IMG/VR virus record: IMGVR_UViG_3300010233_001188 | Location: 1 to 64,000 of that record | Origin: a virus | Strand: one strand, 5' to 3' | DNA: 64,000 nt | In this document: one piece after another, positions 5,938 through 64,000 of the stretch | Position numbering within the stretch: the stretch's first letter is position 1 | Layout: each line of letters begins with the position of its first letter | Translations under genes and position numbers: made by a program | The notes under the pieces: model-generated | Told to the model about the DNA's origin: nothing | Seen by the model: the letters and a program-made list of their open reading frames with translations, nothing else | The model's database searches: none

Positions 5938-6821
5938 TGCGATCAGCTATACTCAAACAATTACACAAACATTTTGCGGATGATCCATCACTGTTCTTTG
6001 TGACAGCCGATATGGGTTTAGGAAACGTCGAGGTATTCAAAGATTCTTACCCAGATCGCTTCCTTAATGCGGGCATAGCGGAACAGAATGCGGTGGGTAT
6101 ATGTGCTGGATTATGGAATGTGGGCTATCGCCCAATCCTTTATTCCGTGGGGAATTTCTTAGTCCATCGACCCTTTGAGCAGCTTAGAAACGATATAGCG
6201 GCCCAAGAAATCCCTATTATTCTCATTGGCACGACAGCGGGTTATGACAACGCCTCTCTTGGCCCAACGCATCACTTGATCGATGAGTGGGGTTGTATAA
6301 AGAGCCTACCCGGCTTTGAAGTGTATACACCATGGTCGGTTGAATATGCCGAGCAGCTTATAGACAAGGTGCTCAATCGGCATAGGCCCACCTATATCCG
6401 TATTCCTAAAGGCTCCCCATCAATGAGTCTAGTTAAGGACGCACCTATCAGCTATCTTCATAAAGCTGATGGACCATTATTGATTACCTATGGTCCGTTA
6501 GCGGAAGAATGCAGAAAAGTCCACGAGGCTCATCCTGAAGTTTCTGTGCTGGTGATGCACAAGCATTGGCCTATTACGAGTGATTATGTCTTAGGGATTC
6601 TGAACAACTATAAGCGCGGAATCGTTGTCGAGGATCATTTCAAGCATACCGGGCTATATGGCTCCCTCTGCCAATATGTGATGGATAACGGCTTGCGTAT
6701 AAAGCTAGAGAGTGCTGCTCCTCCGCATCACTACGAGCTGATGTCGGCTAAGAACCCAGAATGGTATTGGAAGAAATTTAAGCTAGACAAGGCTGGTCTT
6801 GAAAGACGCCTTGGTTTCTAA
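5937..6821 (+). CDS. Transketolase-like protein, C-terminal (pyrimidine-binding) subunit
   Basis: TADMG, YPDRFLNAGIAEQN, RPFEQLRND, LGPTHH, VVEDH. Confidence 0.9.
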   Translation: MRSAILKQLHKHFADDPSLFFVTADMGLGNVEVFKDSYPDRFLNAGIAEQNAVGICAGLWNVGYRPILYSVGNFLVHRPFEQLRNDIAAQEIPIILIGTTAGYDNASLGPTHHLIDEWGCIKSLPGFEVYTPWSVEYAEQLIDKVLNRHRPTYIRIPKGSPSMSLVKDAPISYLHKADGPLLITYGPLAEECRKVHEAHPEVSVLVMHKHWPITSDYVLGILNNYKRGIVVEDHFKHTGLYGSLCQYVMDNGLRIKLESAAPPHHYELMSAKNPEWYWKKFKLDKAGLERRLGF

Positions 6822-7248
6822 GATGAGGGATCTAGCAAAAAATCAACCACTCGCACTAGACGTTAAAGCTGCCGTAGAGGCATGGATAATGCATATTATA
6901 AATAGTAGGACTACAATTAGCTATAATGAAGAGGGACGTGAGTTTGTAGAAACCCAAGCCAATAATATAGTCTACTCCTTTATAGAGCGCTATAAATCTT
7001 TAAACGAAGAACCTCCGACGCTGTGGAGTACTTTTCGCCCATCTTCAAACTCTCAACTCGTTGTAATGCCGGAAACTGAGATTGAATTGGAAGAAACTAT
7101 CGCTTTCTTGTCCGAGGGTGTCAACAATATACCGCGTCATCTGAATTGCATAACTGATGAAATCCACATTCTGAAATCTCGTTTCTTTGCCATGCGTCCT
7201 AAGCAGTCCGTAGTCGAGTATATATTAGAGCAGAGGGATTGCGCTTAG
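6799..7248 (+). CDS. Hypothetical protein with C-terminal EYILEQRD tag
   Basis: ORF coupled to the previous gene; ends SVVEYILEQRDCA. Confidence 0.7.
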   Translation: MKDALVSKMRDLAKNQPLALDVKAAVEAWIMHIINSRTTISYNEEGREFVETQANNIVYSFIERYKSLNEEPPTLWSTFRPSSNSQLVVMPETEIELEETIAFLSEGVNNIPRHLNCITDEIHILKSRFFAMRPKQSVVEYILEQRDCA

Positions 7249-53307: not shown

Positions 53308-53791
53308 TTTACTCATTTGAACCCTCACATGGGGGTTCGACGGGCTTGGTGCTTGCAGTGGTTGCGCGACAATCTCGGTGTTTGGGGCCGGTTTGTGGCT
53401 CATGCGCCAACAGACCGCAACTAACGCCGCCGCTCCCTTACAATCCCTAGGATAAACGTGAGCATCTACTTCTCGGGTAAGTAGCTCTGCCATGGCGTCA
53501 AGAAGTTCCTCTGATAAATCATCTTCGCCTGGAATCGAGGCCCTGCATGTCAACGCATCAAAAAATTCGCCTGTTTTCTTATGACCACTCATTTGCGTGC
53601 CTCAAGTATACTATCGCCAATCCACATCACGGGCAAGAAATTCTACATACGAACGCCAAGCCCAATACCGCTACCACAAACCCAATCATAGACATGTCCA
53701 TTTGACTTAACTCCCGTTGAATGATGTGACTAGATACAACGAAAGCAGACTATGATGCAAGTCATTAAGAAATGGTTGTGATTACGCAGCA

Positions 53792-54133
53792 TCAAGCCTT
53801 TTCCTTCAACGCCTTAATGTTCTCAGGCAGACACATCTTTTGAAAAATAGATATGTCGTATTTCTTTTCCTGTAGCGGGCGGAATCTGTCGGCTCTGAAA
53901 CCCATATCTTCCGGGCCCCGCACAATCTCTACCACCCTAATGTTTACATCAGGATAGGGATGAACCGACGCTGGATGTCTATATAGGTAAACCTCCCGGA
54001 TCGTATAAATCTTACCCTCTTCCAACCCATCCAATGTATTGCAGACAAGACGTTGTGTAATAGCTTCGATCATATCCGGAAAATCCCCCGTGTAGACGCA
54101 AACTACCTTCTGCCCCACATAAAACGTATTCAT
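53792..54133 (-). CDS. Hypothetical protein (F.VGQKVVC family)
   Basis: FYVGQKVVCV, GKIYTIR, F.ADRFRPL. Confidence 0.7.
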   Translation of the reverse strand: MNTFYVGQKVVCVYTGDFPDMIEAITQRLVCNTLDGLEEGKIYTIREVYLYRHPASVHPYPDVNIRVVEIVRGPEDMGFRADRFRPLQEKKYDISIFQKMCLPENIKALKEKA

Positions 54134-54519
54134 ATCCCATCCCTCTGCTCTAAGATGTACTCAGCCATGGAATCCTTTACCAGAATAGGTGATGAGGGCC
54201 ACTCGCCTACGATTCGAGGAACACACTGCCTAACAAGCCTATGGCATTCATTCAGATCCTTGGTGTAGATATTTAATTTTATGAGGTCCGGATCATATAC
54301 AGATGACAGCAGTGACACACACCTCTCCTCATAGTTAAACAGCATCACTTCAAACTTATCTAAGGCGCGGATCGAAACTGATACATGCCGTACACTGATT
54401 ACTTTCCACCTTAAATGCTGTATATCCGCTAGGCTTATTACTCCCTTTTCCACCGTGACCCATACGAGCGGTGCCAATTGGAATATATCATCCTGGTTAA
54501 ATCTCGAATTAGGATTCAT
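54130..54519 (-). CDS. Hypothetical protein with EYILEQRD tag
   Basis: Ends SMAEYILEQRDGI; ATGA coupling. Confidence 0.75.
   Translation of the reverse strand: MNPNSRFNQDDIFQLAPLVWVTVEKGVISLADIQHLRWKVISVRHVSVSIRALDKFEVMLFNYEERCVSLLSSVYDPDLIKLNIYTKDLNECHRLVRQCVPRIVGEWPSSPILVKDSMAEYILEQRDGI
54136..54168. repeat. 33-bp exact direct repeat (other copy at 55422-55454) encoding MAEYILEQRDG
   Basis: cccatccctctgctctaagatgtactcagccat at both sites. Confidence 0.95.
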
Positions 54520-54740
54520 GAACGGTTCTCTATGATGTATTCCGTCATGCTTATCTCAGGCAAGGATGCTATCGGACCGGCTTGCTTGCATGGAACTATT
54601 ATTTTCCAAGACTGTCCATTGAAATGTATTTCAACCGTATCACCACTATCTAGCATCATGTTGCTGCAATCAAGCGGAACAATCTGTCCGTCAGGGGTTA
54701 TAATCTCTACAACTCGATCAGGTGATACTGTCACGTTCAT
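54516..54740 (-). CDS. Hypothetical protein with tag variant
   Basis: Ends SMTEYIIENRS. Confidence 0.7.
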   Translation of the reverse strand: MNVTVSPDRVVEIITPDGQIVPLDCSNMMLDSGDTVEIHFNGQSWKIIVPCKQAGPIASLPEISMTEYIIENRS

Positions 54741-54994
54741 ACCACATCTCTTTCAGCTAATATGTATTCCGTTACATCTATTACGGAAAATGACTTCGTG
54801 AGCTTGAAACGAGTCATCAGGTACCAATCCCGTCTGCCTCTTAAAGCTACATGACCTAAGCTAACAGCGCCAACCTGATATACGTGGCCTTTCTTTATGT
54901 AAAGATTCGTTTCATCATTAATACATTCAACCCAATCTCCGACCTTGAAGGGATAATGCTCTGGTTCTACGGGATTGAAAGGATTAGTCTTCAT
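54737..54994 (-). CDS. Hypothetical SH3-like protein with tag variant
   Basis: FKVGDWVECI; ends DVTEYILAERDVV. Confidence 0.7.
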   Translation of the reverse strand: MKTNPFNPVEPEHYPFKVGDWVECINDETNLYIKKGHVYQVGAVSLGHVALRGRRDWYLMTRFKLTKSFSVIDVTEYILAERDVV

Positions 54995-55413
54995 ATCCCA
55001 TCTCGTGCGGCCAAAATGTAATCAGTCATGGACAGTGGTTCTGGTATAGGTGCTGAGCAAGGAAACTCTTTCCCAAATTCCCCATAAATCATCCTCTTAA
55101 CAACAGAATCAATCTTGGCCCTAACCTCATCTAAAGACGCAACAGTCATGTGAAGCTTCATTCGTGCAGAATTATGATCGTCTTTTGACGTAACCCGAAT
55201 GGCGGATACTTTCACACGATAATAGTCAAGACATGGTTTATGTATAATACCAGGATAACCCCTATATGAGATACTTTCCCAAGACACTTCATGCAGCAGC
55301 CAGTCAGTCGTAGCCAGATCGTCCATTGAGATAACACCATACTTGACTTCAACAGAAACATTATTCCACCCATCATCTACAAGAGTAACACCTGGCCCAC
55401 AAATCACATTCAT
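54991..55413 (-). CDS. Hypothetical protein with tag variant
   Basis: Ends SMTDYILAARDGI. Confidence 0.7.
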   Translation of the reverse strand: MNVICGPGVTLVDDGWNNVSVEVKYGVISMDDLATTDWLLHEVSWESISYRGYPGIIHKPCLDYYRVKVSAIRVTSKDDHNSARMKLHMTVASLDEVRAKIDSVVKRMIYGEFGKEFPCSAPIPEPLSMTDYILAARDGI

Positions 55414-56054
55414 CCTATGCCCCCATCCCTCTGCTCTAAGATGTACTCAGCCATATTGATGCCTTGACACGATACGGATTCACTATAAACCGTAGCCATT
55501 TGCGTTGGATTCGCAATCAATATATGGTGCCAAGTATAGACGTTATTATGCCGAGAGTTAAATCGTTCAAAACGCTTCTTGGATTTCTCGAACGCTGGAG
55601 CAAAGGCAACGTCTCCCATGCGAGTTACCGTATAATTCCTTATATCCTGCTCCGCCGCGTAAGTCTTGTTCACAGTCATTCGCTCTGCATCAAACCAGCA
55701 TTGAGTGATGCCTAAATCGAATCCTTTGACAAGCTCTACCCCAGAACTAGAAGCCTTATTGACTTTGAGTAAGATTATCTGAACCGTATGCCCATAAAGC
55801 TTCCCCTCCAAAACCTCCTTGACTTGGCTCATAGCACGATATTCTTCCGACACCTCCTTAGCCAAATTGTCAAAGCCTGCTGGGTGGGGCAAGCCAAAAT
55901 CCCAATCATCACCTGAAACAAATACATCAATGTCTTTCGGCTCAACCTTTAGGAAATAATCCCTAACGCATCCTCCAGCGATTGTAGTGTGCTTTGTCCA
56001 TGGCTCTAGCTCAGCCAATATCTTTAACCAAAGCTCTGGGCCGTTCTTCATCAA
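55410..56054 (-). CDS. Nucleotidyltransferase (CCA-adding / poly(A) polymerase head-like) with tag
   Basis: IAGGCVRD......KDIDVF, FDLGITQ; ends NMAEYILEQRDGGIG. Confidence 0.8.
   Translation of the reverse strand: MMKNGPELWLKILAELEPWTKHTTIAGGCVRDYFLKVEPKDIDVFVSGDDWDFGLPHPAGFDNLAKEVSEEYRAMSQVKEVLEGKLYGHTVQIILLKVNKASSSGVELVKGFDLGITQCWFDAERMTVNKTYAAEQDIRNYTVTRMGDVAFAPAFEKSKKRFERFNSRHNNVYTWHHILIANPTQMATVYSESVSCQGINMAEYILEQRDGGIG
55422..55454. repeat. 33-bp exact direct repeat (other copy at 54136-54168)
   Basis: Direct comparison. Confidence 0.95.
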
Positions 56055-56287
56055 TCAAATCTCATTTGAGGGGGCTTCGCAGTCCGCTTGGCCTCTTCCC
56101 GGCACTTCTTAGCAAACTCGGCAAATGGTGGTGGATCGGGGCAATCCTTATATAGCCGCATATACTCTAGCTGGATGCTTTTCAACTCTTCTACTCGCGT
56201 TGACCCAACTTGCGGGCTGAACGAACCATTTTCCATTTTCATATCAAACCGTCCCTCCTGGGCGGCTACAAGTCCAATCATCAGCAA
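56051..56287 (-). CDS. Small hypothetical protein
   Basis: Coupled to next gene; GGAGG RBS before internal ATG. Confidence 0.5.
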   Translation of the reverse strand: MLMIGLVAAQEGRFDMKMENGSFSPQVGSTRVEELKSIQLEYMRLYKDCPDPPPFAEFAKKCREEAKRTAKPPQMRFD

Positions 56288-56304
56288 ATTCGCGCCACGA
56301 CATC

Positions 56305-56724
56305 CTAAGCTGGCTTCTTGAAATAAACGGACGGGTCTTCGCGAATGACAGCGGCTATTTCCTTGAAGGTAAGCCTTTCCTCATCATTCAGTTCTATTAA
56401 ATCCGGTTTAAATGTCAAACGAGACTTGCCATCACTATTATACACTGCAAGCAAATCTTTGACCTCTTCCGGTAACGAAAACTCTTGGGCATCACCGCGC
56501 TTGCCATAAAACATGGCACCCTCATCCCATCCAGATCCAATATAGGCTTTAAACCCGAGAGCAACGCAAGCACGGCCTAGACAACAATAGCCGCCATTAC
56601 CATTATTTAGCACGCCGCTGGCCTGCTTAGCCTTTGTCGTCTCAAGATCGATCAACCATTTACGCTGATTCGGCCCAAGCTTCTGTTTGGGCTTCTTTAC
56701 TGTCTTCTTTGAAAGCTTACTCAT
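56305..56724 (-). CDS. Conserved phage hypothetical protein
   Basis: W...L......Q..G.L, YCCLG.AC, LND....TFKEIA..I. Confidence 0.75.
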   Translation of the reverse strand: MSKLSKKTVKKPKQKLGPNQRKWLIDLETTKAKQASGVLNNGNGGYCCLGRACVALGFKAYIGSGWDEGAMFYGKRGDAQEFSLPEEVKDLLAVYNSDGKSRLTFKPDLIELNDEERLTFKEIAAVIREDPSVYFKKPA

Positions 56725-56820
56725 TTGAACACCCCTATGATGGTAAGAGCAACAACCATCAGGAATATCACAAGCCCAATTTCTGCCGGATGAGGCTTGA
56801 CTGATTCTTTGTCCGATCTT

Positions 56821-57006
56821 TCATACATTTTTGAACCATCCCTTCACTTTTTCCATTAAACTCGATGCTAGGAAATACAAGCATAGCATGATCCCGAGAC
56901 TGATGACAAATAGAATGAGTACCATATCCAGCGCAAAGGTAAGGAAGCCGGTCATGTAGCCTAGAATCAGAATCAACAAAGCGGGTAGTATCAGCAAGTA
57001 ATTCAT
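56821..57006 (-). CDS. Small two-pass membrane protein
   Basis: Two hydrophobic segments; ATGA coupling. Confidence 0.6.
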   Translation of the reverse strand: MNYLLILPALLILILGYMTGFLTFALDMVLILFVISLGIMLCLYFLASSLMEKVKGWFKNV

Positions 57007-57230
57007 AAACCTCTTTCCTTCAATAAAATTCCTGCATAGATCATGGCAAAATCCATGTCTTCATCATCGTCAAGAGCATCGCGCACTACGGAAATCCGGC
57101 CAGCACTGATGCCCACAAGATCACTGACGGGTAGCCCCGAGAACGGGACAAATTCCCCAGAATCGGTTTTCCAGTATGGTTCGCGCATGATGATTGTCCC
57201 CTCAAGCAAGCCGGATATGGCTTTATACAA
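57003..57230 (-). CDS. Small hypothetical protein
   Basis: Coupled to next gene. Confidence 0.55.
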   Translation of the reverse strand: MYKAISGLLEGTIIMREPYWKTDSGEFVPFSGLPVSDLVGISAGRISVVRDALDDDEDMDFAMIYAGILLKERGL

Positions 57231-57304
57231 AGCTATACCGAGAATTGTAATTACAGAAGGTGCATCAAAAGGGAAATAGGTGCTGTGCCTAAGCCATAGC
57301 CTAA

Positions 57305-57330
57305 CCAGGGAGCCTGTACACGGCTTTTAT
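57305..57330 (+). repeat. 26-bp dispersed hairpin repeat (partner at 34793-34818)
   Basis: AGCC-TGTACAC-GGCT-TTTAT. Confidence 0.8.
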
Positions 57331-57509
57331 GCGGCAATTGGCGGTAGGATTAGAGGAAAGCGGGAAATTTGATTGTACGTGGCTCAGGATTAGGCTAATG
57401 CGGCTTAGAAAGCACGGCCAGAAGGAAACTAAGGCGTCTATAGCGGCGAAACTTGGCCGGGGGACATTCTCGGCGGTTTTCTTCATTACCTCCCTAGCGG
57501 CCCTGGGGC

Positions 57510-58415
57510 TTGAGAATATACCGTTGGGGGATGTTTAGGGGGTGGGCCTTGCTCGCAGCCATCGTTGTTTTGGCCGCATGGGCGGCAGTTATGCCGCCGT
57601 CCCCGATTCAAATATCTGCATCACAGCCACCAGCTCCAAGTGCTTTTGAAGACACTAGAAAAAATCAAGAAAAAGCCGCTGCATCCCCAAATACTCCCGC
57701 CAATAATGAGAGAGGTACAAAGGACGCGCCGCTTGCGGTTGAAATTACAAATCCCCCAAGCGGTGATAGCATAGCCGCTGAGATTAAGAAAAACCGCGAG
57801 GATCAAGCGGCGGAAGAAGGGCGCGGCATAGTTTTTGACTCGCTCCTTGTTGCTGTCGGCATTCTTCAATTTGTTGCGCTGGTTTTCACCGTCCTCGTAA
57901 CCAACAAGGCGGCGAATGCTGCCAAAGCTGCCGCTGAGGCGCTCCCCGTTTTGGAGCGCGCTTATTTGGCGGTTGAGCCCGCCGGGATCGGCAATTTCGG
58001 CGGCGATCCCCTCATCGCCAGAGTTAAAATTAAGAACGCTGGCAATCTTCCAGCTAGAGAGGTGCGTTGGTTTTTCTACGCTGAATCCGATAGCGATAAA
58101 CGGCGCAAAGAGTTTATCGTTGAGAGCGAGGAGGCGGTTAAAGAAGAAAGCAATTTCCTCGCGCCAAAAGCTGAAATGGTGAGATTTCACAAATTTACTA
58201 GCAAAGTTGAGGCCGTCTATTTCAATGGGGGGACGGAGGCCATCTATGTTTGGGGGATCGTTTATTACCATGATGGCTTTAAGCCTCATCGGTACATTCA
58301 ATTCTGTCATCGGTACGAATCCGATGGAGGAACTTCGGGACATAGTGTCATTAGCCCAGACCGAGCGCGCCAGCACCAATTCGGAAATGGCACAGACGAA
58401 GACAAAAAGACTTAA
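57510..58415 (+). CDS. Membrane-anchored hypothetical protein, moron-like, counter-oriented
   Basis: Two hydrophobic segments, AA..AAEAL...ERAYL, KNAGNLPA, YVWG.V.Y.DGF. Confidence 0.7.
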   Translation: MRIYRWGMFRGWALLAAIVVLAAWAAVMPPSPIQISASQPPAPSAFEDTRKNQEKAAASPNTPANNERGTKDAPLAVEITNPPSGDSIAAEIKKNREDQAAEEGRGIVFDSLLVAVGILQFVALVFTVLVTNKAANAAKAAAEALPVLERAYLAVEPAGIGNFGGDPLIARVKIKNAGNLPAREVRWFFYAESDSDKRRKEFIVESEEAVKEESNFLAPKAEMVRFHKFTSKVEAVYFNGGTEAIYVWGIVYYHDGFKPHRYIQFCHRYESDGGTSGHSVISPDRARQHQFGNGTDEDKKT

Positions 58416-58447
58416 CGCGGCCACCGCCGCCAACACGCGCATGGCGC

Positions 58448-58702
58448 TTACTCCAAACTCACCTCACTCATTTGGGATCGTCCAGGCAGCCGCCAAGCCT
58501 TGAGCTTGGGGCGTTTGCGCCAAGATACCGTGATGATAAGCCATGGATTTGTGTCCCTCGGGTAATTCCATCTCATTTCTTTTTGAAGATAGGCAGATAC
58601 CTTCTTCTTATTCGGATGGGGAGCTGTGATTATCTTTCTCTGACTTCTAAGATGGTCTATGAGAGTCAGGTAAAAGTTATGTACTTTAGTGTAATCTGTC
58701 AC
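58448..58702 (-). CDS. Small basic hypothetical protein
   Basis: AGGA RBS; first gene left of the large intergenic region. Confidence 0.5.
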   Translation of the reverse strand: MTDYTKVHNFYLTLIDHLRSQRKIITAPHPNKKKVSAYLQKEMRWNYPRDTNPWLIITVSWRKRPKLKAWRLPGRSQMSEVSLE

Positions 58703-59227
58703 TGATGTAGTTTCCTATAGCTTAGACATATAGCTAATATAAGCTTACTACTAAGGCAGTAAGCTTACTACTTATGAAGGTGGAGGTGGAAAAGAGCATA
58801 AGGGAACTTAACCCCCGCCTTTTGTCACTAGTAGATGTGACTAAGACAGATGGAGGCTAAGAACCACTATGCTCTCCTAAGCCATGAAGTACGGAGTATG
58901 GACTTAAGAGCATCCCTCTCTTGCGAACTAGAGGGGAATTTCCGATCATGCTTTTATAGGCTATAGTCCGCAAGCCTACACCAATCTTCCCCACAAATCG
59001 TTTACAGGTCTTAGGTAGCCGCTTTGATTGGAACCCCCAGTAACGGCTCGTTTAACGCAACGGTTTCCCTGATGGCCCGGTCCCCGCACGGTTACGATAG
59101 CTATGGCGAATGTGTCAGAAATGGCTTAAAGCCAGACGAACGAATGTGTGCGTGCCAATCGTAACAAGATATCTATACAGCAAAACGTATTGGAGTTCAA
59201 TTCCTAAATCGGGTATAATTATCCTAT
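58703..59227. other. Non-coding divergence region with repeats and hairpins (candidate origin or structured RNA)
   Basis: Strand switch; TAAGCTTACTACT twice; several stems. Confidence 0.45.
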
Positions 59228-59458
59228 ATGCCGTTCTTCGGGAGGAACCACATCATGCCTTATGCCGATTTGTTGCGCCTGGGCATAGCTACGGATGTCC
59301 CGTTTGTCCCGTTGCGCTCTCCGGTTACCCGTTTCTTTGTCATCACAAACTACGGCTGCCCGGATTGCGGGGCCGAATTGGATGCCGCCTTGGTGTGCTG
59401 GGATTGCGAGAAAGACCATAAGCTTGAATATGATTCGTCCAGAGGACTTGTCGTCTGA
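59228..59458 (+). CDS. Small zinc-ribbon protein
   Basis: GGAGG RBS; CPDC...CWDC. Confidence 0.55.
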   Translation: MPFFGRNHIMPYADLLRLGIATDVPFVPLRSPVTRFFVITNYGCPDCGAELDAALVCWDCEKDHKLEYDSSRGLVV

Positions 59459-59534
59459 TAGACGCAATGCGCTTGCGATGCGGGCTTTGTTCGGGTATAT
59501 CGTATTTTATAAATCTTTAAGGGGGATTTACATC

Positions 59535-59744
59535 ATGGGCGGAAAATCACTTAGGCAGCTTGCTTCAACCGAGTTTGAATGTGCTTGCTGCAAGACCATC
59601 TTTGTGTCAGATATGACCGAGGATGAGGTTTCTGTGAAGTTCATGGAAGAAAACCCCGATTGTGATGCAGACGAATACGCGGATTTTTGTGATGAGTGCG
59701 CCGAAGCATTCATGCAGTTTTGCAAGCAAAAGGTCTTGAACTAG
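59535..59744 (+). CDS. Small zinc-finger protein (3' part of ORF 59295-59744)
   Basis: AAGGGGGA RBS before ATG 59535; CACC...CDEC. Confidence 0.6.
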   Translation: MGGKSLRQLASTEFECACCKTIFVSDMTEDEVSVKFMEENPDCDADEYADFCDECAEAFMQFCKQKVLN

Positions 59745-59869
59745 GCCATGCGGAATAAGGATTTGAAGATGGTCGGCTTTGCTCTTGCAAAAGAACTATC
59801 CGCATGGCAATTTGGATGGCGTAAGCCGATGCTCACGGATGCCATTGAAGCAGGACCGGCTGATGGTGA

Positions 59870-60598
59870 TTGGTGGTTCTGCATAGGCCCGTTAGCGTTT
59901 ATGTTCGCAGAGGACTAATCATCATGGATATCTGGGACACGATTGAATCCGGTATAGAGCCACATAGCACTAATACACATGACATTAATCTTAAGAAAGC
60001 TAGGCTGAATACACGGCGAAAGGAAACTAGAAATAAAGCTATCATTGCTTTCTATGGAGCCGGTAATTCTTTGGAATGTGTGGGGCAAAAGTTTGAGATA
60101 ACCAGAGAACGGGTACGGCAAATCTTAGCCAACTCTGGGCACTTCCAACGCTATTATGGCATCAATAGCCCACGTCGCATCAAAGCTTTGGAGAAAGAAG
60201 ACGCTAGGATTGAGAAGCAATGCCTCAAAGAGCAAGCGCGCCAAGAGCGGGATAAAAAGCTCATAGCTCTCTATGTTGATGAGAAGTTGACCTATCTTGA
60301 AATACAAAAGATTACCGGCGTCCCTGTTAGCCAGATCACAAAAAGCTTACGTAAACACGGTGTCCAGAATCGCAGACTGGGTAGAATTGGCGAGTCTCTG
60401 GTTAAACTTACCGATCAGCAGCGGCTAGAAATTTGCACTGCTGAGAAAAAGCCTGGAATGTGCAGACGGATGGCTAAAAAGTACAACGTGTGTGAGAATT
60501 ATATAAGCGTGCTCAGATCCTTATGGAAGAAACGACATGCCAAGAGTACAGCGCCCGCATCCGATAATGGAAGCCCCACAAGTAGCCCAAGCTCATAA
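59870..60598 (+). CDS. Multi-HTH regulator with sigma-70 region-4-like motif
   Basis: SLECVGQKFEITRERVRQI plus further HTH repeats. Confidence 0.75.
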   Translation: MVVLHRPVSVYVRRGLIIMDIWDTIESGIEPHSTNTHDINLKKARLNTRRKETRNKAIIAFYGAGNSLECVGQKFEITRERVRQILANSGHFQRYYGINSPRRIKALEKEDARIEKQCLKEQARQERDKKLIALYVDEKLTYLEIQKITGVPVSQITKSLRKHGVQNRRLGRIGESLVKLTDQQRLEICTAEKKPGMCRRMAKKYNVCENYISVLRSLWKKRHAKSTAPASDNGSPTSSPSS

Positions 60599-60884
60599 AG
60601 GCTGGCCTCATGGCAAGCTTGAACAGAAGTCTTGTGCTTCGTTCGATGTGGATTTGCGATACCGTAGCCGGACTAGTGATGCCGATATGCATGAAGTGCG
60701 CTGGTATATGATTGGCGCTCTGCATATCGCATACATGCAAATCTTTACTAAAGAGACTCATGCTAACGGTAATTACTGTGTTTTCATCAATTCTATCCAA
60801 GGTAATGGCGGGAGTTGGTTCAAGAGCGAGAAAGAGGCTCATACATTCATTCAGTCTGAGTTACAAAGGATTCCGACGCCGTGA
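60537..60884 (+). CDS. Hypothetical protein
   Basis: GTGA coupling to next gene. Confidence 0.45.
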   Translation: MPRVQRPHPIMEAPQVAQAHKGWPHGKLEQKSCASFDVDLRYRSRTSDADMHEVRWYMIGALHIAYMQIFTKETHANGNYCVFINSIQGNGGSWFKSEKEAHTFIQSELQRIPTP

Positions 60885-61387
60885 GGTTATTTTGGAAAAT
60901 TCATGAGGCTAAATGGTGGCTTATGCATCGGTTTATCCCTCGGTATCGGTATCATGTTGTCAAAACTGGATTAAAGCCTGGGTATTGGGATGTCGATACT
61001 AGGATGCTTCATGCCCTCATGAGCTTGCTTTGCCAGTATGTTGAAAAAGAATGTGATGGTCTGGAATCTTTTCAAGAATGGACCGACGAACTACTTACCC
61101 TTGTTTCGCCTGAAAATTCGGAAGGCGAGCACGCTCTCTTGCGGCGGCAGGGTTTGAAGCAAGCTGAAGTGCTGGCTATTTACCGATGGTGGAAAGAACA
61201 GCGCCCGAAAGAATTAGCCAAAATAGACGAATTAATGGATGTGCTGTATAGCCCTGACGTAAAACACGGCCAAATGCAGCGTGAGGCAATGTTTGAGGAA
61301 TTGACGGCGTTGGAAGGCAAAAGGGATCAAGACGAAGAGGGTATGCTTATCCGGCTTATGAAGATTCGCACGAGTCTATGGACATGA
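60881..61387 (+). CDS. Conserved phage hypothetical protein
   Basis: LKPGYWD.DTRML, YRWWK..RP, D..MLIRL.KIR.SLWT. Confidence 0.75.
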   Translation: MRLFWKIHEAKWWLMHRFIPRYRYHVVKTGLKPGYWDVDTRMLHALMSLLCQYVEKECDGLESFQEWTDELLTLVSPENSEGEHALLRRQGLKQAEVLAIYRWWKEQRPKELAKIDELMDVLYSPDVKHGQMQREAMFEELTALEGKRDQDEEGMLIRLMKIRTSLWT

Positions 61388-61947
61388 ACGACGCGGAGTT
61401 CCAATCCTGGGTAGCACAAGTCCCAACCTTGTCCCAGAATCAATTGAGAGCGCTTGAGAAGCACGTACACGGCTTTAAGGCTTCAGTTGGCAGCAAACCC
61501 TTACTAGAGGAAGATTGGTTCCTACGGGGCTTCTATGAAGCTCTACGCAAGCATGGGCTTCTAACCAACCTTAACTTCAAGTCTGTGGCTAATTCCAAGG
61601 AGGCCAAAACCTATAAGACCTTAAAGGATGACTTGTTTGTGGAACTCGAAAAGCTCTTGCCGCCCAAAAACAAATATCAAAGCCGAAATAGCTTGGCTTT
61701 GCTTACTGGCGATTGCCTTGTTAAGTGGTGTAAGAAAAAATACGGATGGACTAACGAGGAACTTTCGGCAAAAGTAGTATTCCGCCACGTAAAGGATTCC
61801 TTAGAGGCGCTTGACAACGAGTTCCCTGGGTATAGGGAATCTAATCTATTTCAAATGGTGTTAGGGGATTACGGAAATGCCAACGCTTGTGAAGTCAAAG
61901 ACGCCGCATCAGGAAGTGCTCCTGGCCGTAGTTCCGACTTTGAATGA
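61378..61947 (+). CDS. Hypothetical protein
   Basis: Coupled ORF; A.D.EFPGY motif. Confidence 0.7.
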   Translation: MDMNDAEFQSWVAQVPTLSQNQLRALEKHVHGFKASVGSKPLLEEDWFLRGFYEALRKHGLLTNLNFKSVANSKEAKTYKTLKDDLFVELEKLLPPKNKYQSRNSLALLTGDCLVKWCKKKYGWTNEELSAKVVFRHVKDSLEALDNEFPGYRESNLFQMVLGDYGNANACEVKDAASGSAPGRSSDFE

Positions 61948-62161
61948 ATCTGATGACGAATTTATCAAACTCCCTTATCAGTATATTTCAAACATAACCG
62001 CGCATTACGCTTCTATCCACTTTGATCCTTATGCATTTAAAGACCCGTGCGCGACGTGGGCCTCGGAACTTGTGGTATTTTCTTTAGAGGATATGTGTGC
62101 CTTAGATGGCAATCTTTTGTTTCGGAAGTCGATAGCAATGCGTAAGGGCCTAAGCCTGTGA
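61877..62161 (+). CDS. Hypothetical protein
   Basis: GTGA coupling to next gene. Confidence 0.5.
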   Translation: MPTLVKSKTPHQEVLLAVVPTLNESDDEFIKLPYQYISNITAHYASIHFDPYAFKDPCATWASELVVFSLEDMCALDGNLLFRKSIAMRKGLSL

Positions 62162-62430
62162 GCGAAAAGGAAATAGAATGTGGACCATGGATTCCTACTC
62201 CGGGATATTGCCCTATTCCAGATAAAGTAAAGCATCAGGTTAAATTAAATATGGATGTTAAAGAAAGGGGGGTGATATATGATGATGCATCAACATGGAG
62301 GTGGAACTTAGATATGGGGTCTGGAACTATTTCTGCATATCGAGTTCCTTTGGGGAATATGCTTAATTTGCCTAAGTCTGATATGGCTGAATACATCTTA
62401 GAAATGCGGGACGGCGCACCGATTGGCTAA
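62158..62430 (+). CDS. Hypothetical protein with EYILE.RD tag
   Basis: Ends DMAEYILEMRDGAPIG. Confidence 0.72.
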   Translation: MSEKEIECGPWIPTPGYCPIPDKVKHQVKLNMDVKERGVIYDDASTWRWNLDMGSGTISAYRVPLGNMLNLPKSDMAEYILEMRDGAPIG

Positions 62431-63838
62431 TACGCTTACTAAGCCTTTACAAGAATCCATTCTTAGTCTCATGGCGGTTGACGACAAGCACGGCAGAATT
62501 GCTGCCGGGCTGCTCACTGCTCAAGACTTTGATGAGAGCTACACAGATATAGCTCGTAGGATCATCAACTATCATAAAGAGCAAGGCCGTGCTCCGGGTA
62601 AAGCTCATTTAGATGATGTGTTTGATGACATTATCGGCAATCCTAAGCACAAGAAGCACAAGCAATATGTTTTCATTATTGAAGGCATTCTCCACAATTC
62701 CGAGAGCCTAAATCCGCCCTACCTCATTAGCCGTATTGGTGAATTTACCAGACGGCAGACGTTGAAAGGTGCTTTGCTTGAAGCGAGCGAGCGCTATCAA
62801 CAAGGCGGGCCTGAGCTTATCCCCGATGTAGAAAACATTCTCTTCAAAGCGTTAAAGTTCAAAGAGGATGATTTTGATGCGGGTGTGTTTCTCAATGACA
62901 AAGAGCGCGGGCTTGGGTTCTTGGATAGCGCCCCTCAAGCTTACCTGACCGGCATCCCTGAATTAGACCATGTGTCTTTAGGCCCGACGCCAGGGCAATT
63001 GCTTTTGTTTATTGCCGGTAAGGGGATGGGAAAAAGCCATGCCTGTGTTCATTTTGGGAAGCAATGTCTTTTGCAGAAAGCTAAGGTTGTTCATATCAGC
63101 CTTGAGATGCCGTGGCAGCAAGTCATTCAACGCTACTATCAAAGCTTTTTCGCTATACCAAAACGAGCCGATGATTACGAAATCACCAAGTTTGAACTGG
63201 ACACATTAGGCCGCTTATCTCACTTCAAGACGGATAACATTCGCCCAGCGGTGTCTTTAGCTGATGATTCAATCAAGACGTACCTTGGGCAGCGGATTGA
63301 TGATTGGGGTGCTAAGCTAGGGCGACTCTGTATAAAAGATTTTCCAACGTCGTATTTAACTATTCCAAAGCTAGAAGCCTATCTTGATACATTAGAACTT
63401 ACCCACAATTTCATTCCGAACGTATTGATCCTCGACTACCCGGATTTGATGAACCTCAAGGGCGATCTACGGCAATCGCTGGGGGCTTTATTCAAAGACC
63501 TACGCGGAATGCTTAAGCGCCGGAATTTGGCCTGTGTAGCGCCCACACAGTCTAACCGTGATGGGTGGGATGCTAAAACAGTCAGAGCCAGCATGGTATC
63601 GGAGGACGGCTCCAAGGTCATGACAGCGGATATGACATTAACCTACAGTCAGACCGATTCTGAAAAAGCTAAGGGGCTTGCCCGGCTTGGAGTAGCGCAC
63701 AATCGCGGAGATGAGGACAAGTTCGGTATAATTATATCACAAAGTTACAGAACGGGGCAGTTTGCTTTGTATTCGGCGCGCATGACAAGTAACTATTTCG
63801 ATTTGGTAGGCGGCGCACCAAATGGCGATGAGGCATGA
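62423..63838 (+). CDS. DnaB-like (SF4) replicative helicase
   Basis: AGKGMGKS Walker A, HISLEM, LILDYPDLM, TQSNR, SED..K...AD. Confidence 0.9.
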   Translation: MANTLTKPLQESILSLMAVDDKHGRIAAGLLTAQDFDESYTDIARRIINYHKEQGRAPGKAHLDDVFDDIIGNPKHKKHKQYVFIIEGILHNSESLNPPYLISRIGEFTRRQTLKGALLEASERYQQGGPELIPDVENILFKALKFKEDDFDAGVFLNDKERGLGFLDSAPQAYLTGIPELDHVSLGPTPGQLLLFIAGKGMGKSHACVHFGKQCLLQKAKVVHISLEMPWQQVIQRYYQSFFAIPKRADDYEITKFELDTLGRLSHFKTDNIRPAVSLADDSIKTYLGQRIDDWGAKLGRLCIKDFPTSYLTIPKLEAYLDTLELTHNFIPNVLILDYPDLMNLKGDLRQSLGALFKDLRGMLKRRNLACVAPTQSNRDGWDAKTVRASMVSEDGSKVMTADMTLTYSQTDSEKAKGLARLGVAHNRGDEDKFGIIISQSYRTGQFALYSARMTSNYFDLVGGAPNGDEA

Positions 63839-64000
63839 ACGCCCTCATTCCGCGCGCAACAGCCGAACAGGTCGTCGCAGCACGAGATGCGGCCCTAAAG
63901 GCTTATGGTGAGGCCCACATCTTTTATGATGAAGTTGACTTAGACTGATTCATCCCAACGCTATTGCAGAGTTTCTAGCCAAGCCTAGAGATTCCCATGA

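What the first reader, a model, noticed from the sequence alone, without database searches (positions are those of the whole stretch)
54130..62430. Seven unrelated proteins share a C-terminal tag M(A/T)EYILEQRDG
Seen: SMAEYILEQRDGI (54130), SMTEYIIENRS (54516), DVTEYILAERDVV (54737), SMTDYILAARDGI (54991), NMAEYILEQRDGGIG (55410, a nucleotidyltransferase), DMAEYILEMRDGAPIG (62158) and, far away, SVVEYILEQRDCA (6799-7248). Five are consecutive ATGA-coupled genes; the protein bodies show no visible similarity. Copies differ at synonymous positions (TAC/TAT, ATC/ATA/ATT, GAG/GAA, AGG/CGG/CGA, GAT/GAC), pointing to selection on the peptide. Inference: a portable amphipathic address tag for docking to a shared partner, packaging/injection, localisation or timed degradation. 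I do not recognise it as a known motif.
Basis: partly seen in the sequence, partly recalled or inferred. Interest (0 to 1): 0.85.

Follow-up and report, generated by a model that had tools for sequence, protein, structure and literature searches.

The report
Shared C-terminal tag on phage proteins
Ten mostly unrelated small proteins of one uncultured freshwater phage end in the same twelve-residue peptide, which is kept at the protein level and looks like an address label read by a partner that is still unknown.

Summary
The contig is a 90.6-kb phage. Ten genes, seven of them in the window, end in [S/D/N]-M-x-E-Y-I-L-x-x-R-D-G, with 0-6 residues between that core and the stop.

Conservation is at the peptide level. 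Third codon positions vary freely: pN/pS is 0.13 in the seven most conserved codons and 0.95 just upstream. There is no shared RNA fold.

The tag is portable. Five of five outside homologues of the tagged nucleotidyltransferase end about 30 residues earlier and lack it. Its AlphaFold model puts the tag as a short helix at the end of a low-confidence tail. The bodies fall into about eight unrelated groups, with two weak paralogue pairs.

I found the tag nowhere else: not in 1.84 billion protein representatives, IMG/VR, JGI metagenomes or GTDB genomes.

Best reading: a docking or address peptide for one common partner (0.5). The partner is not identified. Candidates are the phage's own MoxR AAA+ / metallopeptidase-vWA pair and its sliding clamp. 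Neither the vWA module nor the nucleotidyltransferase travels with such tags in other phages.

This scan has noted other, different C-terminal tags in other phage genomes (e1-173140, e1-4772764, e1-831089). The kind is known; this tag is new.

The parts
7207..7248 (+). Tag (S-V-V-E-Y-I-L-E-Q-R-D-C-A, stop) ending gene 6799-7248 (149 aa, no family), in the sugar operon after a transketolase-like gene
   Evidence: 38.5 bits; leave-one-out 32.5; no Pfam or PHROG family; next gene starts 82 nt after the stop
54130..54171 (-). Tag (S-M-A-E-Y-I-L-E-Q-R-D-G-I, stop) ending gene 54130-54519 (129 aa); ATGA overlap with the untagged gene 53792-54133
   Evidence: (42.5 bits); weak paralogue of 54991-55413; its 33 tag bases are identical to those of 55410-56054
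54516..54551 (-). Shortened tag (S-M-T-E-Y-I-I-E-N-R-S, stop) ending gene 54516-54740 (74 aa); ATGA overlap with the next gene
   Evidence: (21.9 bits; leave-one-out 11.8 because the stop lies inside the scored window)
54737..54778 (-). Tag (D-V-T-E-Y-I-L-A-E-R-D-V-V, stop) ending gene 54737-54994 (85 aa; weak match to PHROG 14634 'DNA binding protein'); ATGA overlap
   Evidence: (36.0 bits)
54991..55032 (-). Tag (S-M-T-D-Y-I-L-A-A-R-D-G-I, stop) ending gene 54991-55413 (140 aa); ATGA overlap
   Evidence: (34.8 bits); the Atlas look-up gave no usable relative
55410..55457 (-). Tag (N-M-A-E-Y-I-L-E-Q-R-D-G-G-I-G, stop) ending the nucleotidyltransferase gene 55410-56054 (214 aa); the tag sits on a C-terminal extension of about 30 residues that homologues lack
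   Evidence: phrog_1614, 2.6e-18; 5 of 5 homologues end before the extension; residues 180-213 pLDDT below 50, helix 200-206 is the tag
62380..62430 (+). Tag (D-M-A-E-Y-I-L-E-M-R-D-G-A-P-I-G, stop) ending gene 62158-62430 (90 aa), directly upstream of and overlapping the DnaB-like helicase gene 62423-63838
   Evidence: (42.6 bits); paralogue of genome 73569-73907

Best explanation
The tag is a portable peptide module of about 12 residues. It consists of a helix N-cap residue (S, D or N), a short amphipathic helix M-x-E-Y-I-L-x-x-R-D, usually a Gly, and then 0-6 variable residues. It hangs on a flexible, Pro-enriched linker at the C-terminus of at least ten phage proteins that fall into about eight unrelated body groups.

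Shown: the copies are real, in frame and C-terminal; purifying selection acts on the amino-acid sequence; the tag has been added to at least one protein family that lacks it elsewhere.

Inferred: it is a docking (address) peptide through which one common partner recognises this whole set of proteins, which are encoded among the replication-type and small-gene clusters. This is the way the clients of a sliding clamp, or the cargo of an encapsulin, share one short terminal peptide.

The partner and the outcome (recruitment, remodelling, cleavage or timed removal) are not known. My first candidates are the phage's own MoxR AAA+ ATPase (genome 67813-68832) with its HExxH metallopeptidase-vWA partner (69039-70163, intact DxSxS MIDAS), which lie between tagged genes, and the phage's beta-type sliding clamp (76622-77668). 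I put each at about 0.15.
For: - Ten in-frame C-terminal copies, far beyond chance.
- Information content is high at codon positions 1-2 and low at position 3 across the tag.
- Over all 45 pairs, pS is 0.94-1.03 (saturated) while pN is 0.14 in the seven most conserved codons. pN/pS is 0.13 there, 0.28 over 11 codons, and 0.95 in the 11 codons just upstream.
- No consensus RNA structure: 0 pairs.
- Portability: 5 of 5 database homologues of the nucleotidyltransferase end right after the conserved core and lack the extension and tag. The 5 IMG/VR nucleotidyltransferase homologues whose C-termini one search printed cleanly (L193, L195-L198, of the 7 loci asked for) do not end in the tag; three end right after the conserved core.
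- Linker plus helix: the AlphaFold2 model has a confident core (1-179), pLDDT below 50 for 180-213, and a helix at 200-206 that is the tag.
- Pro makes up 14 of 120 residues (11.7%) in the 12 residues before the N-cap, against 4.6% in 137 ORFs. The N-cap is S in 5 copies, D in 4 and N in 1.
- Bodies: only two weak paralogue pairs among 45 pairs.
- Precedent for the principle: the highly similar, interchangeable hydrophobic-acidic C-termini of T4 gp43, gp55 and gp33 bind one clamp through divergent unstructured linkers (PMC2988020, passages read).
- Basis for the MoxR/vWA candidate: both genes are present with intact motifs. MIDAS sites bind a peptide that supplies an acidic ligand, and the NorD C-terminus docks on the NorQ ring (PMC7159879 and PMC13036017, passages read).
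Against: - No partner has been identified and nothing here measures binding.
- No related phage was available, so the strongest comparative test (co-variation of the tag on all carriers) could not be made.
- The tag was found in no other sequence, so its generality is unknown.
- Part of the conservation may have other causes. In 7 of 10 copies the last tag codons lie 5-20 nt before the next gene's start, and in some they supply a purine-rich Shine-Dalgarno-like stretch. Two copies share 33 identical bases, which points to gene conversion.
- Against the MoxR/vWA candidate: no tag family turned up in the 80 IMG/VR loci that carry the metallopeptidase-vWA gene. Only 1 of the 80 gave a component of three or more shared C-termini, and it looks spurious. 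The same pipeline recovers the tag in this phage.
- Against the clamp candidate: the tag does not resemble the Q-L-x-L-F type of beta-clamp motif (motif recalled). A second, more clamp-like C-terminal motif (C-L-F-D-D-V-F-G) exists in the same genome.
Confidence: 0.5

Rival explanations
1. The tag is a substrate motif rather than a mere handle. An enzyme encoded by the phage acts on it covalently. One option is the nucleotidyltransferase that heads the five-gene tagged operon, acting on the near-invariant Tyr. The other is the HExxH metallopeptidase-vWA protein, which would cut in the linker and release either the body or the C-terminal peptide.
For: - Tyr is present in 9 of 10 copies.
- The nucleotidyltransferase is the first gene of the tagged operon and carries the tag itself.
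- The phage encodes a zincin-type metallopeptidase fused to vWA, next to a MoxR ATPase.
- In actinobacterial vWA-MoxR systems a zincin peptidase is described as cutting small, fast-diverging proteins to release a conserved C-terminal peptide (PMC7159879, section 24 read).
Against: - One copy has Phe in place of the Tyr.
- Only 1 of 48 IMG/VR loci with a homologue of the nucleotidyltransferase shows three or more shared C-termini, and weakly.
- Only 1 of 80 loci with the metallopeptidase-vWA gene does, and that one looks spurious.
- The tag matches none of the peptide types listed in that paper (FxSxx, RxD, acidic run).
Confidence: 0.15
2. The tag is a self-association element. The C-terminal helices of the tagged proteins bind each other, or the bodies of other tagged proteins, and so assemble the products of the coupled genes into one hetero-oligomer. 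No separate receptor exists.
For: - Five tagged genes are translationally coupled in one operon, which favours stoichiometric co-production.
- The tag is predicted helical and amphipathic (the helical-wheel reading is my inference).
Against: - A helix of about 10 residues is short for a stable bundle.
- Tagged genes are scattered over 67 kb in at least four separate clusters and on both strands: genome 6799, 54-56 kb, 62 kb and 72-74 kb.
- The nucleotidyltransferase family works elsewhere without the tag.
Confidence: 0.12
3. The conserved unit is the DNA. It is a 3'-end cassette (tag codons, ribosome-binding site and ATGA junction) that serves as a homology patch for recombination. It lets genes be swapped or deleted without breaking translational coupling, and the peptide is a passenger.
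For:
- 6 of 10 copies end in an ATGA junction and one more overlaps the next start.
- Two antisense look-alikes lie at the 3' ends of plus-strand genes at genome 87493 and 87924.
Against: - Synonymous sites are saturated (pS about 1) while residues are kept (pN/pS 0.13). This is the opposite of what DNA-level conservation or neutral decay of a passenger would give.
- Apart from the one identical pair the copies share too few consecutive identical bases for efficient homologous recombination.
- 3 of 10 copies are followed by 70-84-nt gaps, not junctions.
- The antisense look-alikes score 12.5 bits, and 0.175 hits of that strength are expected per shuffled genome.
Confidence: 0.07
4. The tag acts in translation. 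Either the RNA or the nascent peptide in the ribosome tunnel slows termination and promotes re-initiation at the overlapping start of the next gene.
For: - The tag always lies within 8-14 codons of the stop.
- 7 of 10 copies are followed by an overlapping start.
- Some copies place an AGAGG-type purine stretch 8-10 nt before the next ATG.
Against: - The distance from the motif to the stop varies (8, 10, 10, 10, 10, 10, 12, 13, 13, 14 codons), whereas arrest peptides need a fixed register (established knowledge).
- 3 of 10 copies have no coupled downstream gene.
- Many untagged genes of this phage are also tightly abutted or coupled.
- The Arg codons vary (AGG, AGA, CGA, CGG, CGT; AAA Lys in one), so the purine stretch is not kept.
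- There is no conserved RNA structure.
Confidence: 0.05

Closest known systems
Clamp-binding C-terminal tails of phage T4 (gp43, gp55, gp33 on gp45), and clamp-binding motifs in general
   Same: Several unrelated proteins of one phage end in a highly similar short hydrophobic-acidic peptide. It is joined by a divergent unstructured linker and read by one hub, and the T4 tails are interchangeable (PMC2988020, passages read). This phage encodes a beta-type clamp and a clamp loader.
   Different: - Ten carriers, most of them tiny proteins of no known family, one of them in a sugar operon.
- No resemblance to the Q-L-x-L-F or T4-type motifs (motifs recalled).
- The polymerase carries at best a degenerate copy (9.7 bits).
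- A separate, more clamp-like tail (C-L-F-D-D-V-F-G) exists in the same genome.
- Binding was not tested.
Peptide-processing modules of vWA-MoxR ternary conflict systems (FxSxx-COOH type; Kaur, Burroughs, Iyer, Aravind 2020)
   Same: The gene set is similar: a MoxR AAA+ ATPase, a vWA protein, a zincin metallopeptidase, and small fast-diverging proteins whose only conserved part is a short C-terminal peptide (PMC7159879, section 24 read).
   Different: - Here the peptidase is fused to the vWA protein, as described for some jumbo phages (PMC7824862, passage read).
- There is no VMAP, AP-ATPase or radical-SAM partner.
- The motif fits none of the four published types.
- The carriers include an enzyme.
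- The link is not seen in the 80 other phage loci with the same vWA gene.
Docking of the NorD C-terminus on the NorQ (MoxR AAA+) ring
   Same: A C-terminal peptide contacts the post-sensor-1 loops of a MoxR-type hexamer (PMC13036017, abstract and passages read). A MoxR ATPase is encoded between tagged genes here.
   Different: In NorQD the docking tail belongs to the vWA partner itself, not to a set of clients. Nothing here shows that the tag contacts the phage MoxR.
Encapsulin cargo-loading peptides
   Same: A short C-terminal peptide on otherwise unrelated proteins directs them to one HK97-fold shell, and it works when fused to foreign proteins (PMC11866011 and PMC8346489, abstracts seen in the search listing). 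This phage has a lambda-E-like capsid protein.
   Different: Tagged genes are not next to the capsid gene and lie in replication-type or small-gene clusters rather than the head module. The motif is unlike the known ones (recalled). Virion content is unknown.
C-terminal degrons (ssrA type)
   Same: A portable C-terminal peptide read by one machine.
   Different: Degrons of that type depend on the very last residues (recalled). Here the last 0-6 residues vary in length and sequence, and the conserved core is internal to them.

Membership tests
Sliding-clamp-binding terminal motifs | Short hydrophobic/acidic peptide at the extreme terminus, joined by a divergent flexible linker, on several unrelated proteins | tested here: met
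   Ten C-terminal copies; linker enriched in Pro; low-confidence tail with a terminal helix
Sliding-clamp-binding terminal motifs | The replicative polymerase of the same genome carries the motif | tested here: inconclusive
   The PolA C-terminus is the best non-tag C-terminus on the PSSM (9.7 bits, the next is 3.4). The match straddles the end of the PolA fold and a 13-residue extension.
Sliding-clamp-binding terminal motifs | Fit to a known consensus (bacterial Q-L-[SD]-L-F; T4/RB69 hydrophobic-acidic L-F-D-type tail); the consensus is recalled, not taken from a call | tested here: not met
   The tag core M-x-E-Y-I-L-x-x-R-D has no Q-L-x-L-F. A different tail in this genome, C-L-F-D-D-V-F-G, fits better.
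Sliding-clamp-binding terminal motifs | Physical binding to the clamp | not tested
vWA-MoxR-linked peptide-processing systems (FxSxx-COOH type) | MoxR AAA+, vWA and zincin metallopeptidase encoded together | tested here: met
   Genome 67813-68832 (AAA/AAA_5/bpMoxR) and 69039-70163 (DUF2201_N 4.4e-46 plus the VWA-like DUF2201 1.7e-19), with HExxH and DxSxS present
vWA-MoxR-linked peptide-processing systems (FxSxx-COOH type) | Small, rapidly diverging proteins whose conserved part is a C-terminal peptide | tested here: met
   However, one carrier is a 214-aa enzyme.
vWA-MoxR-linked peptide-processing systems (FxSxx-COOH type) | Peptide of the FxSxx, RxD, acidic-run or FtsH-associated type, with the matching AP-ATPase or radical-SAM partner | tested here: not met
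   The tag fits none of the types named in PMC7159879 section 24. No such partner appeared among the proteins scanned, but not every ORF of the genome was scanned.
vWA-MoxR-linked peptide-processing systems (FxSxx-COOH type) | Tagged genes travel with the module across genomes | tested here: not met
   Of 80 IMG/VR loci (2,038 ORFs, up to 10 kb each side), 1 has a component of three or more shared C-termini, and it looks spurious. The only strong pairs are Nmad5-like paralogues. Positive control on this genome.
Encapsulin-type cargo-loading / capsid-targeting peptides | Short C-terminal peptide after a linker on unrelated cargo | tested here: met
Encapsulin-type cargo-loading / capsid-targeting peptides | Cargo genes sit beside the shell gene or in the late head operon | tested here: not met
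   The capsid gene is at 38452-39540. The nearest tagged gene is 14.6 kb away. The others lie among replication genes or in the sugar operon.
Encapsulin-type cargo-loading / capsid-targeting peptides | Tagged proteins present inside particles | not testable with these tools
   Needs virion proteomics
ssrA-type C-terminal degrons | Recognition of the conserved last residues and the free carboxylate | tested here: not met
   The residues after the core vary: none, CA, GI, VV, GI, GGIG, GAPIG, GV, DGKDGV, NMKSE
Nucleotidyltransferase with tagged protein substrates (MntA/HepT-like logic) | Conserved acceptor residue in the tag and linkage of tagged genes to the enzyme across genomes | tested here: inconclusive
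   Tyr is present in 9 of 10 copies. Only 1 of 48 loci with a homologue of the enzyme shows three or more shared C-termini, weakly.

The most novel reading that the evidence does not exclude
The tag is the client code of a phage MoxR AAA+ / metallopeptidase-vWA machine. The machine would capture, by this one C-terminal peptide, a defined set of at least ten phage proteins and remodel or cut them. That would give the first substrate set and recognition signal for the MoxR-vWA modules that many phages carry and whose role is unknown. It would also be one example of a wider, undescribed habit of phages to mark groups of their proteins with genome-private C-terminal address tags.
Probability: 0.12. 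Interest if true: 0.85.

Novelty: new variant of a known kind. Interest (0 to 1): 0.6.

Why it matters
Shared terminal peptides read by one hub are known: clamp clients, degrons and encapsulin cargo. A private tag on about 7% of a phage's genes (10 of some 137), most of them orphans, is not something I found described.

If a receptor is found, ten proteins of unknown function are assigned to one pathway at once. The tag also becomes a handle for pulling that pathway out of infected cells. Together with the different tags this scan has noted in other phages, it would point to a general organising principle of phage proteomes.

Tried and rejected
- **Close relatives.** Megablast of 53700-63900 against GenBank phages found nothing. 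The DnaB-like helicase is at most 35% identical to any GenBank phage, the best being Edwardsiella phage ZHS, and has no IMG/VR relative. I read 46 kb of ZHS; a scan of its C-termini showed only low-complexity pairs and no tag family.
- **The tag elsewhere.**
  - A word-based search with the last 42 residues of the 129-aa protein returned only the protein itself.
  - A profile of the 10 tails against 1.84 billion representatives returned 10 hits at E <= 0.001: 9 are this phage's own proteins and 1 is a BON-repeat false positive. A foreign protein with only the 12-residue tag would score too low to be listed, so this is weak evidence of absence.
  - IMG/VR pattern scans found 0 and 0.
  - The JGI metagenome pattern gave 52 matches. 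All were single hits, most in a GAF-type family, and none was C-terminal with the M-[ATV] prefix.
  - The GTDB genome pattern gave 56 matches, about the number I estimated beforehand from the pattern's information content (roughly 50, my own estimate, not a call). Most were in ribosomal protein S2-like, recombinase-like or Lon-like contexts as I read them. Six had a stop within 18 codons. The one on a long ORF (L086) is a 281-aa nucleotidyltransferase-like protein, with a single copy in its locus.
  - The profile against PDB sequences found 0 at E <= 10.
- **Complex prediction**: metallopeptidase-vWA (alignment of 71), MoxR, Mg and the tag (alignment of 10). Verdict of the tool: no answer. Scores were 0.58, 0.54 and 0.58. 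Controls with the partner replaced scored 0.00 and 0.00. The control with the vWA chain replaced scored 0.48, so the score is not specific to that chain. This is neither support nor evidence against. Only one job is allowed, so the tag with MoxR alone, with vWA alone and with the clamp could not be run.
- **Tag-like C-termini near vWA genes elsewhere.** The best PSSM hit among 2,038 C-termini, 14.0 bits in a 57-aa protein of L127, is not kept in its orthologues in L148, L138 and L145, so I treat it as chance.
- **Body comparison.** The untagged 53792-54133 and the tagged 54737-54994 are not significantly alike (E 3.7).
- **Atlas look-up** of the 140-aa protein gave no usable relative.
- **Sequencing runs.** No RNA holder is listed. 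Three freshwater or lake DNA runs hold about 5% of the sampled words. Laid down, two runs of two studies hold a 220-nt contig identical to 55678-55897, and one holds pieces 90-98% alike at 53727-53941 and 62015-62223. No piece covers a tag.

Full report
**What is there.** The window is the first 64 kb of a single 90,599-bp contig. The contig is a tailed phage. It has a lambda-E-like capsid gene at 38452-39540, 47-50% identical to capsid genes of Klebsiella and Pseudomonas phages. A long minus-strand block of ORFs includes that capsid gene and, by its layout, looks like the structural module (only the capsid gene was checked here). The replication module holds:
- a DnaB-like helicase;
- an SNF2 helicase, a MoxR-type AAA+ ATPase, an HExxH metallopeptidase-vWA protein and a DNA methylase;
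- a beta-type clamp, a family-A polymerase with a UDG domain and an intein, a clamp loader, a gp32-like protein, RecA, a PD-(D/E)XK nuclease and an RNA ligase.

Its nearest GenBank relative by helicase is only 35% identical. Traces of it occur in freshwater and lake metagenomes.

**The observation.** A six-frame scan of the whole contig adds three more, at genome 71946-72221, 72218-72463 (an E-F-I-L variant) and 73569-73907. The core is [S/D/N]-M-x-E-Y-I-L-x-x-R-D-G, followed by 0-6 variable residues.

It is far beyond chance:
- The pattern GARTAYATHNTNGAR occurs 8 times against 0.08 expected.
- The ten copies score 21.9-42.6 bits on a PSSM whose best hit in 40 shuffled genomes is 14.8.
- Leave-one-out scores are 26-41 bits for 8 of 10. 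They are 11.8 and 13.4 for the two divergent copies.

In an all-against-all comparison of the last 22-24 residues of every ORF, this is the only family of shared C-termini with three or more members in the genome.

**Peptide or DNA?** Across the ten copies, information content is high at first and second codon positions and low at third positions. Summed over all 45 pairs, synonymous sites are saturated (pS 0.94-1.03). Nonsynonymous differences are few: pN is 0.14 in the seven most conserved codons, giving pN/pS 0.13, and pN/pS is 0.28 over 11 codons. The 11 codons immediately upstream behave as unrelated sequence, with pN/pS 0.95. RNAalifold finds no shared structure, 0 pairs. So the amino-acid sequence is what is kept. 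One pair of copies (54130 and 55410) shares 33 identical bases, so occasional gene conversion also occurs.

**Portable or inherited?**
- BLASTP of the bodies without the tag finds only two weak paralogue pairs: 54130~54991 and 62158~73569.
- The nucleotidyltransferase (phrog_1614, 2.6e-18) has five database homologues. All five end just after the conserved R-F-E-R-F-N core and lack the roughly 30-residue extension that carries the tag. The five IMG/VR homologues whose ends were printed cleanly do not carry the tag either, and three of them end just after the core.
- In the AlphaFold2 model the core (1-179) is confident. Residues 180-213 have pLDDT below 50, and the only element in them is a helix at 200-206, which is the tag.
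- The 12 residues before the N-cap are 11.7% Pro against 4.6% genome-wide. The N-cap position is always S, D or N.

This is the anatomy of a short linear docking motif on a flexible tether.

**Relation to translation.** Six copies end in an ATGA junction, one overlaps the TTG start of the helicase, and three are followed by gaps of 70-84 nt. The distance from the motif to the stop ranges from 8 to 14 codons, and the Arg codons vary. A Shine-Dalgarno or nascent-peptide role can at most explain part of the last three codons.

**Search for the tag elsewhere.** I did not find it. Searches covered a profile against 1.84 billion representatives (9 own proteins plus 1 false positive), IMG/VR, JGI metagenomes (52 pattern matches, none tag-like), GTDB genomes (56 matches, none convincing) and PDB sequences. 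The tag is private only as far as these tools can tell.

Two leads came from this scan's earlier notes.

This phage has such a pair (genome 67813-68832 and 69039-70163) with intact HExxH and DxSxS motifs. It lies between the tagged gene at 62 kb and those at 72-74 kb. The literature gives a rationale:
- MIDAS sites bind a peptide that supplies an acidic ligand (PMC7159879).
- The NorD C-terminus docks on the NorQ ring (PMC13036017).
- Metallopeptidase-vWA plus MoxR pairs have been noted in jumbo phages (PMC7824862).
- Actinobacterial vWA-MoxR systems include a peptidase that releases a conserved C-terminal peptide from variable small proteins (PMC7159879 section 24).

The comparative test fails, however. 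Among 80 IMG/VR loci with the same vWA gene (2,038 ORFs), none has a tag family. Only 1 gave a component of three or more, and it looks spurious. The strong pairs are Nmad5-like paralogues. The same pipeline recovers the tag here.

The second note (e1-153673) suggested a link between tail-tagged small proteins and a nucleotidyltransferase. Among 48 IMG/VR loci with a homologue of this enzyme, one has a weak three-member component.

The clamp remains a candidate by analogy with T4 (PMC2988020). The polymerase's C-terminal extension is the best-scoring untagged C-terminus (9.7 bits, the next is 3.4), but the match straddles the end of the polymerase fold. A second tail in this genome looks more like a clamp ligand.

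**Verdict.** Peptide-level selection and portability are shown. The function is inferred. I put 0.5 on a common-partner docking tag, 0.15 on a covalent substrate motif, 0.12 on self-association, 0.07 on a DNA-level cassette and 0.05 on a translational element. The kind of thing is known; this tag and its carrier set are new. Similar but different tags have been noted by this scan in other phages (e1-173140, e1-4772764, e1-831089). Those are unchecked notes, and I use them as leads only.

Noticed in passing
L002 3471-3496 and 3902-3927 (genome 87471-87496 and 87902-87927), outside the window: A second shared C-terminal tail, C-L-F-D-D-V-F-G. It ends the PD-(D/E)XK nuclease (genome 86987-87502) and a 64-aa protein (87739-87933) and is encoded by a perfect 26-nt direct repeat. 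The SNF2 helicase (64041-65513) has S-L-F-D-A-I-I 15 residues before its end. It looks like a clamp-binding tail (resemblance recalled). Read on the opposite strand it gives P-E-Y-I-I-E-Q-A, which scores 12.5 bits on the tag PSSM. This is probably coincidence but remains unexplained.
   Followed up: partly
L001 1930-1962 (genome 65930-65962): The cell-wall hydrolase gene probably starts at an ATG preceded by AAGGA. Its first residues, M-T-Q-Y-P-I-L-Q-R-G-G, read like the tag with two one-residue indels (14.1 bits ungapped) and are followed by a membrane anchor. It may be an N-terminal, divergent copy.
   Followed up: partly
L001 13675-17523 (genome 77675-81523): Family-A DNA polymerase of 1,282 aa with an N-terminal UDG-superfamily domain and an intein. 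It sits next to a beta-type clamp and a clamp loader. Its 13-residue C-terminal extension is weakly tag-like.
   Followed up: partly
L001 7057-8025, minus strand (genome 71057-72025): An IS1595-family transposase (DDE_Tnp_IS1595, 1.7e-38) sits inside the phage replication region. Its 5' end overlaps the start of the tagged gene 71946-72221.
   Followed up: partly
L001 2691-6163 (genome 66691-70163); L112-L191: A DUF3150 protein, a MoxR ATPase and a metallopeptidase-vWA protein form a module that recurs in many IMG/VR phages. In marine relatives the third protein is Nmad5-like. A paralogue of it downstream of the vWA gene shares its C-terminus, E-V-[LI]-L-x-x-x-L-L-G-D.
   Followed up: partly
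L196 10214-10774 and 11265-11435: Two neighbouring genes of another phage (an IMG/VR contig with a homologue of the nucleotidyltransferase) end in the identical ten residues A-I-A-K-A-T-G-E-A-G.
   Followed up: no
L145 13898-15733(-) and 17959-18276(+); L148 11437-13212(-) and 15424-15738(+): In marine phages with the vWA module, two different proteins per locus end in an acidic run followed by [IL]-P-F or W-P-L, like the tip of bacterial SSB (resemblance recalled).
   Followed up: no
window 59870-60598: A 242-aa protein with a sigma-70 region-4 helix-turn-helix (4.4e-08) and a second HTH lies between the tagged clusters. It may be a phage transcription factor.
   Followed up: no
window 55678-55897: A 220-nt contig identical to this stretch occurs in two freshwater or lake metagenome runs of two studies. 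This hints at the habitat. The share of sampled words held is only about 5%.
   Followed up: partly
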